Assembly: GCA_964452525.1 (NCBI GenBank) | Contig: CAYVLZ010000001.1 | Location: forward strand, 65,742-129,741 | DNA from: Candidatus Woesearchaeota archaeon | GTDB taxonomy: Archaea; Nanobdellota; Nanobdellia; SCGC-AAA011-G17; CAYFGV01 | DNA: 64,000 nt | Direction of reading: 5' to 3' | Part shown: positions 35,629 through 35,733 of the stretch, one piece after another | Layout: every line of letters begins with the position of its first letter | Numbering within the stretch: position 1 is the stretch's first letter | Made by a program: the position numbers and the translations under genes | The notes under the pieces: model-generated | Told to the model about the DNA's origin: nothing | What the model saw: the letters and a program-made list of their open reading frames with translations, nothing else | The model's database searches: none

Positions 35629-35733
35629 GGGCCCATGGTCTAGTGGTTAGCTATTGCCCACATATGACGTTGCCTTGACGTGGCAGATCTCTAAAGAGCC
35701 AAAAGTTCGGGAGTTCGACTCTCCCTGGGCCCA
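35629..35733 (+). tRNA. tRNA-like gene (Val, anticodon GAC inferred) with two extra insertions (putative non-canonical introns) or a tRNA pseudogene
   Basis: Acceptor GGGCCCA/UGGGCCC+A and T-arm GGGAG-UUCGACU-CUCCC are perfect. A perfect anticodon arm UUGCC-UUGACGU-GGCAG is present. About 15 extra nt lie in the D-loop region and about 17 in the variable region. Followed by a T5 tract. Confidence 0.45.

What the first reader, a model, noticed from the sequence alone, without database searches (positions are those of the whole stretch)
35629..35733. Second tRNA directly downstream looks interrupted at two non-canonical positions, or is a decaying tRNA
Acceptor stem, T-arm and a perfect anticodon arm (UUGCC-UUGACGU-GGCAG, anticodon GAC = Val) are all present. 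About 15 extra nt sit in the D-loop region and about 17 in the variable region. A duplicated UUGCC pentamer suggests a BHB-type junction ambiguity. Together with the tRNA-Glu and tRNA-Ala cases this suggests a lineage rich in multiple or non-canonical tRNA introns.
Basis: seen in the sequence. Interest (0 to 1): 0.6.

Follow-up and report, generated by a model that had tools for sequence, protein, structure and literature searches.

The report
Valine tRNA gene with two introns
This is a real valine tRNA gene of a small DPANN-type archaeon, interrupted by two short protein-spliced introns at unusual positions; the kind is already known, but standard tRNA finders miss the gene.

Summary
Window 35629-35733 (+) is a 105-nt tRNA-Val(GAC) gene with exactly 15 extra nt in the D-loop (35649-35663) and 17 extra nt after the anticodon stem (35687-35703). 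[quoted passage not shown] The predicted cuts leave a perfect 73-nt cloverleaf.

- **D-loop intron (position 20/21).** It occurs in the same register in tRNA-Val(GAC) of 13 other DPANN loci, and its inner helix covaries.
- **43/44 intron.** It is shared with the closest syntenic relative, with one compensatory change, and has counterparts in three metagenomic loci.
- **Splice junctions.** Syntenic orthologues are intronless or carry other introns, and their gaps fall exactly at the predicted junctions.
- **Decaying-tRNA alternative.** Rejected. Every stem pair forms, the gene is 54% G+C in a 32% genome, and it occupies the orthologous locus.
- **Duplicated UUGCC.** This is a coincidence.

I file it as a new member of the known class of archaeal multiple-intron tRNAs. 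Splicing itself is inferred, not shown. The more unusual feature is next door: tRNA-Thr carries a 453-nt BHB intron that encodes a PD-(D/E)XK homing-endonuclease-like protein.

The parts
35629..35733 (+). tRNA-Val(GAC) gene: 3 exons and 2 introns, ending at discriminator A; no encoded CCA
   Evidence: Rfam tRNA 42.7 bits; spliced form accepted by ARAGORN as a 73-nt tRNA-Val(GAC)
35629..35648 (+). Exon 1: acceptor 5' strand, U8 G9, D-stem 5' strand, D-loop up to U20a
   Evidence: Identical to the uninterrupted D-arm of syntenic orthologues L021 and L024
35649..35663 (+). Intron 1, 15 nt (AGCTATTGCCCACAT), between tRNA positions 20a and 21
   Evidence: Strict hBHBh' motif found uniquely here. 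Same register in 13 other loci. Falls exactly in an alignment gap of the orthologues
35643..35661 (+). BHB 1 core. Central helix 35643-35646 (GUGG) pairs with 35658-35661 (CCAC). The 5' bulge is 35647-35649 (UUA). The inner helix is 35650-35651 paired with 35656-35657. The 3' bulge 35662-35664 (AUA) and the outer pairs 35641-35642 with 35665-35666 lie just outside this span.
   Evidence: The central helix, 5' bulge and inner helix are also present in the minimum-free-energy fold
35664..35686 (+). Exon 2: A21, D-stem 3' strand, G26, and the anticodon arm with GAC at 35677-35679
35687..35703 (+). Intron 2, 17 nt (ATCTCTAAAGAGCCAAA), between tRNA positions 43 and 44
   Evidence: BHB with 4-bp central helix, two 3-nt bulges and a 3-bp inner helix. 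Orthologous 17-nt intron in L024. Absent from L021 and L023 exactly at these borders
35677..35707 (+). BHB 2. Central helix 35681-35684 (UGGC, tRNA positions 38-41) pairs with 35698-35701 (GCCA). Bulges are 35685-35687 (AGA) and 35702-35704 (AAA). The inner helix is 35688-35690 paired with 35695-35697. The outer helix is weak: 35677-35679 paired with 35705-35707, with G35680 unpaired. Forming this motif requires the anticodon stem to open.
   Evidence: This conformer is computed at -29.9 kcal/mol against -31.0 for the anticodon-stem conformer
35704..35733 (+). Exon 3: variable loop AGUUC, T-arm, acceptor 3' strand, discriminator A
35734..35738 (+). T5 run directly after the discriminator; likely an archaeal oligo-T terminator (inferred)
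   Evidence: Sequence
35102..35626 (+). Upstream partner gene tRNA-Thr(UGU), separated from tRNA-Val by 2 nt and probably co-transcribed. It has a 453-nt intron (35138-35590) at the canonical 37/38 position that holds ORF 35193-35591.
   Evidence: The Thr-Val gene pair is conserved in L021, L023 and L024

Best explanation
This is the functional tRNA-Val(GAC) gene of a DPANN-type archaeon, broken into three exons by two short BHB introns. It is probably transcribed together with the tRNA-Thr(UGU) gene 2 nt upstream, and transcription probably ends at the T5 run after the discriminator. In the precursor, each intron folds with its flanking exon sequence into a bulge-helix-bulge motif. Intron 1 pairs its CCAC with the conserved D-loop GUGG (G15-G18). 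Intron 2 pairs its GCCA with UGGC (positions 38-41), which needs the anticodon stem to be open for a time. The archaeal splicing endonuclease (EndA) would cut after the second base of each 3-nt bulge, and an RNA ligase (RtcB type) would join the exons. The product is a 73-nt tRNA, to which CCA is then added. Shown here: the motifs, their covariation, the exact presence/absence of the inserts in orthologues, and the intact mature cloverleaf. Inferred: the cleavage itself, the enzyme, co-transcription, and the order of the two splicing events.
For: 1. Removing 35649-35663 and 35687-35703 gives a canonical 73-nt tRNA-Val(GAC) with an 8-nt D-loop (A14, G18 G19, A21) and a 5-nt variable loop.
2. 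BHB 1 is a strict hBHBh' motif and the only one in the gene under strict criteria. BHB 2 has the 4-bp helix, both 3-nt bulges and a 3-bp inner helix.
3. The chance of a register-correct BHB is 0.2-0.6% for insert 1 and 0.02-0.08% for insert 2.
4. The same cut rule reproduces the canonical 37/38 junction of the neighbouring tRNA-Thr (sequence) and of L009.
5. Fourteen loci including the window, among them MAGs labelled Pace-, Woese-, Nano- and Iainarchaeota, carry the D-loop intron in the same register. The 5' bulge UUA is constant, and the inner helix is 2-9 bp long with several pair types at each position.
6. The closest syntenic relative, L024, has a 17-nt intron at 43/44 (ATCATTAATGAGCCAGA). 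Its inner helix UCA/UGA differs from the window's UCU/AGA by a compensatory change.
7. L017, L019 and L016 have 29-nt introns at 43/44 or 42/43. Their central helix tracks the anticodon-stem sequence: UGGC/GCCA versus GUGC/GCAU.
8. Syntenic orthologue L023 is intronless and L021 has only a 33/34 intron. Alignment gaps fall exactly on both predicted introns.
9. In 17 spliced or intronless sequences, 100% of stem cells form standard pairs, 12 pairs show changes on both sides, and slid controls reach only 38-53%.
10. The gene is 54% G+C in a genome of about 32%.
11. Published work links DPANN EndA variants to many disrupted tRNA genes, and lists 20/21 as a known intron site (PMC5829648; PMC4090602).
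Against: - There is no RNA evidence, so splicing is inferred.
- BHB 2 lacks a continuous outer helix (G35680 is unpaired) and competes with the anticodon stem. It therefore needs an endonuclease that tolerates relaxed motifs.
- No EndA gene was found among the 20 ORFs of 123-278 aa that I scanned, and the rest of the genome is not available.
- In the minimum-free-energy fold, the 3' bulge of BHB 1 is replaced by alternative pairs and BHB 2 is not formed.
- I searched for the motifs after seeing the inserts. The independent support is the comparative evidence.
- My automated BHB-plus-ARAGORN procedure gave wrong answers for other tRNAs (also L001 and L008). It is not proof on its own.
Confidence: 0.9

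Rival explanations
1. It is a decaying tRNA pseudogene that has picked up two junk insertions, and a working tRNA-Val(GAC) lies elsewhere in the genome.
For: Standard finders miss it. Only 64 kb of the genome can be inspected, so a second copy cannot be excluded.
Against: All 20 counted stem pairs are standard, and the invariant bases (U8, A14, G18 G19, A21, U33, G53 U54 U55 C56, A58, C61) are intact. It is 54% G+C in a 32% genome. Both inserts form register-correct BHBs. The same locus, between tRNA-Thr and the 643-aa protein gene, holds the tRNA-Val(GAC) gene in three relatives. No other tRNA-Val gene lies in the window.
Confidence: 0.03
2. One or both inserts stay in the mature tRNA. For example, the 22 nt between the anticodon and T arms could act as a class-II-like long variable arm, or the D-loop could simply be enlarged.
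For: With intron 1 removed, ARAGORN still draws a tRNA-Val with a 22-nt variable loop. CUCU/AGAG can form a small hairpin.
Against: A variable arm would not need GCCA complementary to positions 38-41, a following AAA or GAA bulge, or a partner strand that changes with the anticodon stem (GCAU with GUGC in L019 and L016). The insert is absent from syntenic orthologues L021 and L023, which have the usual 5-nt loop. Insert lengths vary from 17 to 29 nt and from 15 to 35 nt while the BHB geometry stays fixed. A 23-nt D-loop that pairs away G18 G19 would block the D-loop/T-loop contact, by established tRNA structure.
Confidence: 0.04
3. The inserts are introns of another mechanistic class (group I or II, self-splicing), or the locus is a piece of a split or permuted tRNA.
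For: Group I introns do occur in archaea and in tRNA genes of small-genome bacteria (PMC6125680 and PMC13011429, listed).
Against: At 15 and 17 nt the inserts are far too short for a ribozyme core. No Rfam intron family matched in 34300-36000 even at E up to 10. The exons are colinear and complete.
Confidence: 0.01

Closest known systems
Multiple-intron tRNA genes of Archaea with BHB introns at non-canonical positions (Thermoproteales, ARMAN-2, Nanoarchaeota; reviewed in PMC4090602, PMC4033280, PMC3239211)
   Same: Short protein-spliced introns defined by a bulge-helix-bulge motif, one to three per gene. They sit outside position 37/38 and are often in relaxed motifs. They are missed by standard tRNA finders and turn over fast between relatives.
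   Different: The host is an AT-rich DPANN archaeon of the Woese-/Pacearchaeota kind. The second intron sits at 43/44, a site not in the list given by PMC4090602 (20/21, 22/23, 25/26, 29/30, 30/31, 45/46, 53/54, 56/57, 59/60, 'etc.'). I could not check the full databases.
Methanopyrus kandleri pre-tRNA-Glu(UUC): a non-canonical D-loop intron plus a canonical intron (PMC5829648)
   Same: The intron lies in the D-loop directly 5' of A21 (the paper describes a fragment from A21 to G37). There are two introns in one tRNA. Cleavage was demonstrated in vitro with a crenarchaeal EndA.
   Different: That intron is a relaxed HBh' motif in a different tRNA of a euryarchaeon. Here the D-loop motif is strict hBHBh', the tRNA is Val(GAC), and the second intron is non-canonical too.
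ARMAN-2 disrupted tRNAs and the epsilon2 EndA; alpha4 EndAs with the 'L3' insert in DPANN (PMC3239211, PMC5829648, PMC12397907)
   Same: DPANN lineages with many tRNA genes interrupted at various positions, linked to endonucleases of broadened specificity.
   Different: The EndA of this organism is unknown. It was not among the 20 window ORFs scanned.

Membership tests
Archaeal BHB (endonuclease-spliced) tRNA intron | Removing the insert restores a canonical cloverleaf tRNA | tested here: met
   73-nt tRNA-Val(GAC). 100% standard pairs in 20 stem pairs across 17 sequences.
Archaeal BHB (endonuclease-spliced) tRNA intron | Two 3-nt bulges on opposite strands separated by a 4-bp helix at the exon-intron borders, flanked by helices (hBHBh'), or a recognised relaxed form | tested here: met
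   Intron 1 is strict, with 2 outer pairs, a 4-bp central helix and 2 inner pairs. Intron 2 has the 4-bp central helix, both 3-nt bulges and 3 inner pairs, but its outer helix is interrupted by one unpaired G, so it is a relaxed form.
Archaeal BHB (endonuclease-spliced) tRNA intron | The motif is kept by compensatory changes in homologous introns | tested here: met
   Intron 1: 14 loci, with 2-4 pair types at each inner-helix position. Intron 2: 5 loci, whose inner and central helices change together. Five is a small sample.
Archaeal BHB (endonuclease-spliced) tRNA intron | Orthologues without the insert break exactly at the predicted junctions | tested here: met
   L021, L023 and L024 lack intron 1, and L021 and L023 lack intron 2. 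The gaps coincide with 35649-35663 and 35687-35703.
Archaeal BHB (endonuclease-spliced) tRNA intron | Archaeal host with a splicing endonuclease able to cut at non-canonical or relaxed sites | not testable with these tools
   The host is archaeal (archaeal SSU, LSU and SRP RNAs). No EndA was found among 20 ORFs scanned. The rest of the genome is not available.
Archaeal BHB (endonuclease-spliced) tRNA intron | Excision demonstrated at the RNA level | not testable with these tools
   No transcript data are available.
tRNA pseudogene | Loss of stem pairing or invariant bases, drift towards genomic base composition, and a working paralogue elsewhere | tested here: not met
   Stems and invariant bases are intact. 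G+C is 54% against 32%. It occupies the orthologous locus. A paralogue elsewhere in the genome could not be checked.
Class II tRNA (long variable arm) | A stable variable-arm hairpin kept in orthologues, independent of the anticodon-stem sequence | tested here: not met
   The insert is absent from L021 and L023. Its 3' part is complementary to positions 38-41 and changes with them.
Group I / group II intron | A ribozyme core of at least about 200 nt that matches the covariance models | tested here: not met
   Inserts of 15 and 17 nt. No Rfam intron hit at E up to 10.

The most novel reading that the evidence does not exclude
The D-loop (20/21) intron of tRNA-Val(GAC) may be an old, vertically inherited non-canonical intron shared across DPANN phyla, rather than a recent acquisition. 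At the same orthologous locus, other introns (33/34, 34/35, 43/44) are gained and lost between relatives whose neighbouring protein is still 62-66% identical. The 43/44 intron class would then work as a conformational switch, because it can only be cut while the anticodon stem is open. That would impose an order or a quality checkpoint on tRNA maturation. The homing-endonuclease-bearing BHB intron in the adjacent tRNA-Thr would point to an active DNA-level route for intron spread in these genomes.
Probability: 0.25. Interest if true: 0.55.

Novelty: new member of a known kind. Interest (0 to 1): 0.3.

Why it matters
**For annotation.** The gene is invisible to ARAGORN and to Rfam or Infernal run at genome scale. 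Genomes of this lineage would therefore be scored as lacking tRNA-Val(GAC), and completeness or codon-usage inferences would be wrong. PMC5829648 already noted incomplete tRNA sets in DPANN genomes and called for manual curation.

**For biology.** The locus gives a compact natural series of the same gene with zero, one or two introns at four different sites in close relatives. It also shows a non-canonical intron kept in the same register across several DPANN groups. Both bear on the open question of whether non-canonical tRNA introns are recent and how they move. None of this changes the known mechanism.

Tried and rejected
- **Duplicated UUGCC as a junction signal: rejected.** Only the window has it among 14 loci. 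It does create a cryptic BHB-like pairing (local 26-29 with 55-58) that would delete the anticodon. I treat that as accidental.
- **Automated BHB plus ARAGORN resolution.** It works for the window and most tRNA-Val loci. It gave spurious first solutions for L001 and L008 and wrong answers for the window's Ile, Leu and Glu genes. I used it only as support.
- **First version of the shuffle test.** It timed out and was rewritten.
- **EndA gene in the window.** Not found among 20 ORFs of 123-278 aa.
- **Naming the organism.** The exact-sequence cluster look-up returned no names. The window itself is in neither genome contigs nor metagenome contigs, because both patterns would have matched it. Only a 3-kb Logan contig, SRR7048218, was retrievable.
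- **More distant homologues of the downstream protein.** L025-L028 have no tRNA directly upstream or were not informative.
- **Published record of a 43/44 intron.** The literature search found nothing, but the search tool cannot handle '43/44' properly.
- **Solved structures.** The PDB sequence search with the intron ORF gave no meaningful match.

Full report
**What is there**

The window comes from an AT-rich archaeon of about 32% G+C. It carries archaeal SSU, LSU and SRP RNAs. At 35629-35733 (+) lies a 105-nt, 54% G+C stretch with these parts:
- a 7-bp acceptor stem (GGGCCCA/TGGGCCC);
- a T-arm (GGGAG-TTCGACT-CTCCC);
- an anticodon arm (TTGCC-TTGACGT-GGCAG) with anticodon GAC at 35677-35679.

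ARAGORN does not report it. Rfam run on the whole window does not report it either, at gathering scores or in E-value mode. When only 34300-36000 is searched, the Rfam tRNA model matches 35629-35733 end to end at 42.7 bits against a gathering score of 29. The match has one insert in the D-loop and one before the T-arm.

**The two inserts are BHB introns**

Removing local positions 21-35 (window 35649-35663, AGCTATTGCCCACAT) and 59-75 (35687-35703, ATCTCTAAAGAGCCAAA) leaves a 73-nt sequence. ARAGORN folds it as a standard tRNA-Val(GAC) with an 8-nt D-loop (A14, G18 G19, A21) and a 5-nt variable loop AGUUC.

I wrote a scanner for the archaeal splice motif: outer helix, 4-bp central helix, a 3-nt bulge on each strand 3' of the central helix, and an inner helix. 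With at least 2 outer and 2 inner pairs required, it finds exactly one motif in the gene, and that motif excises 21-35. With the outer helix relaxed, it also finds the motif that excises 59-75.

- **BHB 1.** GUGG (G15-G18) pairs with CCAC of the intron. The bulges are UUA and AUA. The inner helix is GC/GC with a UAUU loop. The outer pairs are A14-U and U13-G.
- **BHB 2.** UGGC (positions 38-41, the 3' strand of the anticodon stem) pairs with GCCA of the intron. The bulges are AGA and AAA. The inner helix is UCU/AGA. The weak outer helix uses the anticodon bases and leaves one G unpaired.

The cut rule I applied is a cut after the second bulge base. It reproduces the canonical 37/38 junction in the neighbouring tRNA-Thr and in L009.

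I replaced each insert with shuffled or genome-composition random sequence. A register-correct BHB then arises in 0.2-0.6% of trials for intron 1 and in 0.02-0.08% for intron 2.

The conformer with both BHBs is computed at -29.9 kcal/mol. The conformer with BHB 1 and the anticodon stem is at -31.0, so the switch that intron 2 needs is cheap. The minimum-free-energy fold is -40.4 kcal/mol with z = -2.75. It contains the central helix, the 5' bulge and the inner helix of BHB 1, but it does not contain BHB 2.

**Comparative evidence for intron 1**

I scanned one genome per species with an exon pattern that required an insert in the D region. It returned 15 loci. Nearly all are MAGs labelled uncultured archaeon or Pace-, Woese-, Nano-, Iain- or Aenigmatarchaeota. 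One (L014) is labelled a Chloroflexi bacterium.

Twelve of these loci, plus metagenomic locus L019 and the window (14 in all), have the intron in the identical register:
- the central helix is GUGG/CCAY;
- the 5' bulge is UUA;
- the third base of the 3' bulge is always A, which becomes A21;
- the outer pairs are constant.

Intron length ranges from 15 to 35 nt. The inner helix is 2-9 bp long, with 2-4 pair types at each position (for example GC/GC, GCUUAU/AUAAGC, GUAUC/GAUGC, AUUUCUUUU/GAAGGAAAU). Four of the loci (L003, L004, L006, L015) also carry a distant homologue of the window's downstream protein next to the tRNA. None of the 13 other loci repeats its own anticodon-stem strand inside the intron, so the UUGCC repeat in the window is a coincidence.

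**Comparative evidence for intron 2**

A metagenome scan that required an insert after position 43 returned four loci.
- L017 has a 29-nt intron at 43/44 with the same UGGC/GCCA-AAA layout and a 9-bp inner helix.
- L019 and L016 have 29-nt introns one base upstream (42/43). Their central helix is GUGC/GCAU, which matches their different anticodon stems.
- L019 also has the D-loop intron.

**Syntenic orthologues**

The 643-aa protein encoded just downstream (35798-37729) has homologues of 62-66% identity. Their contigs carry the same tRNA-Thr(UGU)-tRNA-Val(GAC) pair directly upstream. The orthologous tRNA-Val(GAC) gene differs in intron content as follows.

| Locus | Identity of neighbouring protein | Introns in tRNA-Val(GAC) |
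|---|---|---|
| Window | - | 20/21 (15 nt) and 43/44 (17 nt) |
| L024 | 66% | 34/35 (20 nt) and 43/44 (17 nt) |
| L021 / L022 | 63% | 33/34 only (21 nt) |
| L023 | 62% | none |

The 43/44 intron of L024 reads ATCATTAATGAGCCAGA. Its inner helix UCA/UGA differs from the window's UCU/AGA by a compensatory change.

In the four-way alignment, the gaps coincide exactly with 35649-35663 and 35687-35703. L021 and L024 share an uninterrupted D-arm, GGTCTAGTGGTTATGACG in L021 with two base differences in L024. The L021 sequence is identical to the splice product predicted for the window.

**The mature tRNA is under selection**

Seventeen spliced or intronless sequences align with 100% standard pairs over 20 stem pairs. 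Twelve pairs show changes on both sides. Slid controls reach only 38-53% pairing. Within the syntenic group, the anticodon stem changes by compensation (UUGCC/GGCAG, CUACC/GGUAG, UCGCU/AGCGG, UCGCC/GGCGG), and pair 7:66 changes from A-U to G-C. A motif scan finds six tRNA genes in the window and only one tRNA-Val. Together with the G+C content, this rules out a decaying pseudogene as far as 64 kb allows.

**Mechanism**

Shown: the structure, the covariation and the junctions.

Inferred from established archaeal tRNA splicing: EndA cuts both bulges of each BHB, a ligase joins the exons, and CCA is added because none is encoded. The 2-nt gap after tRNA-Thr, an A/T-rich TATA-like box about 30 nt before tRNA-Thr, and the T5 run after tRNA-Val together suggest one transcript. 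The sigma-70 and terminator scan is not informative for an archaeon.

Intron 2 has a relaxed motif. Published work says relaxed motifs need broad-specificity enzymes: (alpha-beta)2, epsilon2, or the DPANN alpha4 enzymes with the L3 insert (PMC5829648; PMC3239211). No EndA was found among 20 window ORFs.

**Comparison with what is known**

Non-canonical and multiple tRNA introns are well documented in Thermoproteales, ARMAN-2 and Nanoarchaeota. Position 20/21 is on the published list (PMC4090602). M. kandleri tRNA-Glu has a D-loop intron directly before A21 (PMC5829648). Rapid gain and loss between relatives is also described (PMC4033280). I did not find 43/44 listed, but I could not search for it properly. 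I therefore file this as a new member of a known kind and score its interest as modest.

**Next door**

The adjacent tRNA-Thr(UGU) (35102-35626) has a textbook BHB at 37/38. Its intron is 453 nt (35138-35590) and holds a 132-aa ORF that matches Pfam PDDEXK_5 (E 7.7e-22). The ORF's stop codon forms the 3' bulge of the BHB. The same arrangement occurs in L029, where the protein is 70% identical, while the syntenic L021 allele is intronless. I found no paper describing this, and it deserves its own follow-up.

Noticed in passing
window 35102-35626 (+); intron 35138-35590; ORF 35193-35591: tRNA-Thr(UGU) has a perfect canonical 37/38 BHB: CTTG/CAAG central helix, bulges TAa and tgA, and a long inner helix. 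Its intron is 453 nt and encodes a 132-aa protein matching Pfam PF11645 PDDEXK_5 (E 7.7e-22). From memory, that is the family of the cyanobacterial group-I-intron homing endonuclease I-Ssp6803I. The ORF's TGA stop is the 3' bulge. The same arrangement occurs in L029 (70% identical protein), the syntenic allele in L021 is intronless, and there was no Rfam group I hit. I found no published description of a PD-(D/E)XK homing-endonuclease gene inside an archaeal BHB tRNA intron.
   Followed up: partly
L021:216-309, L023:1037-1111, L024:35-144 compared with window 35629-35733: The orthologous tRNA-Val(GAC) gene has four different intron configurations in four relatives whose neighbouring protein is 62-66% identical: 20/21+43/44, 34/35+43/44, 33/34 only, and none. 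The partner tRNA-Thr also varies: an ORF-bearing intron, no intron, or two short introns.
   Followed up: yes
L030:1860-1960 and L032:1860-2080: Homologues of the intron ORF sit in other contexts. In L030 the ORF is followed directly by the 3' piece of another tRNA (TTCAAATCCGGCCGGGGGCT), which suggests an intron in or near a T-arm. In L032 the ORF is free-standing about 70 nt upstream of an intron-containing tRNA-Thr(UGU).
   Followed up: no
window 56814-56915 (+), 40738-40834 (-), 57751-57881 (+): Three more intron-containing tRNA genes, read by eye. The first is tRNA-Ile with the rare UAU anticodon and a canonical intron of about 28 nt. The second is tRNA-Leu(UAG) with a short canonical intron. 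The third is tRNA-Glu(UUC) with two introns, one apparently inside the anticodon stem near 29/30 and one of 40 nt at 37/38. My automated resolver gave wrong answers for all three.
   Followed up: partly
window 59336-61497 (16S) and 61863-64000 (23S): The 16S match spans 2162 nt against a 1478-position model, which implies an insert of about 680 nt. That insert contains ORF 60240-60827 (195 aa, no Pfam hit). The 23S region holds ORF 63058-63678, which has a LAGLIDADG_3 match (E 1.5e-07). These are probably rRNA introns with homing endonucleases.
   Followed up: partly
window 35654-35689 (local 26-61): The chance UUGCC repeat creates a cryptic BHB-like motif: UUGC (local 26-29) pairs with GCAG (local 55-58), with 3-nt bulges. 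If used, it would excise 29 nt including the anticodon, so it is a possible mis-splicing site.
   Followed up: no
L016 (tRNA-Val at about 11430-11640, minus strand), L018:117-182, L005:2565-2641: Other tRNA-Val(GAC) variants. L016 has a 42/43 intron plus a further insert of about 38 nt in the T-arm 3' strand. L018 has an insert of about 15 nt inside the anticodon-stem 3' strand, near 40/41. L005 has a 28-nt D-region insert that does not fit the common register.
   Followed up: no
window 35734-35797 and the equivalent stretches of L021, L023 and L024: The spacer between tRNA-Val and the 643-aa gene keeps a conserved block, TTCTAACGAAACTTTTA(A/T)ATAAG, in all four relatives. It is probably the TATA-box promoter of the downstream gene.
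   Followed up: no
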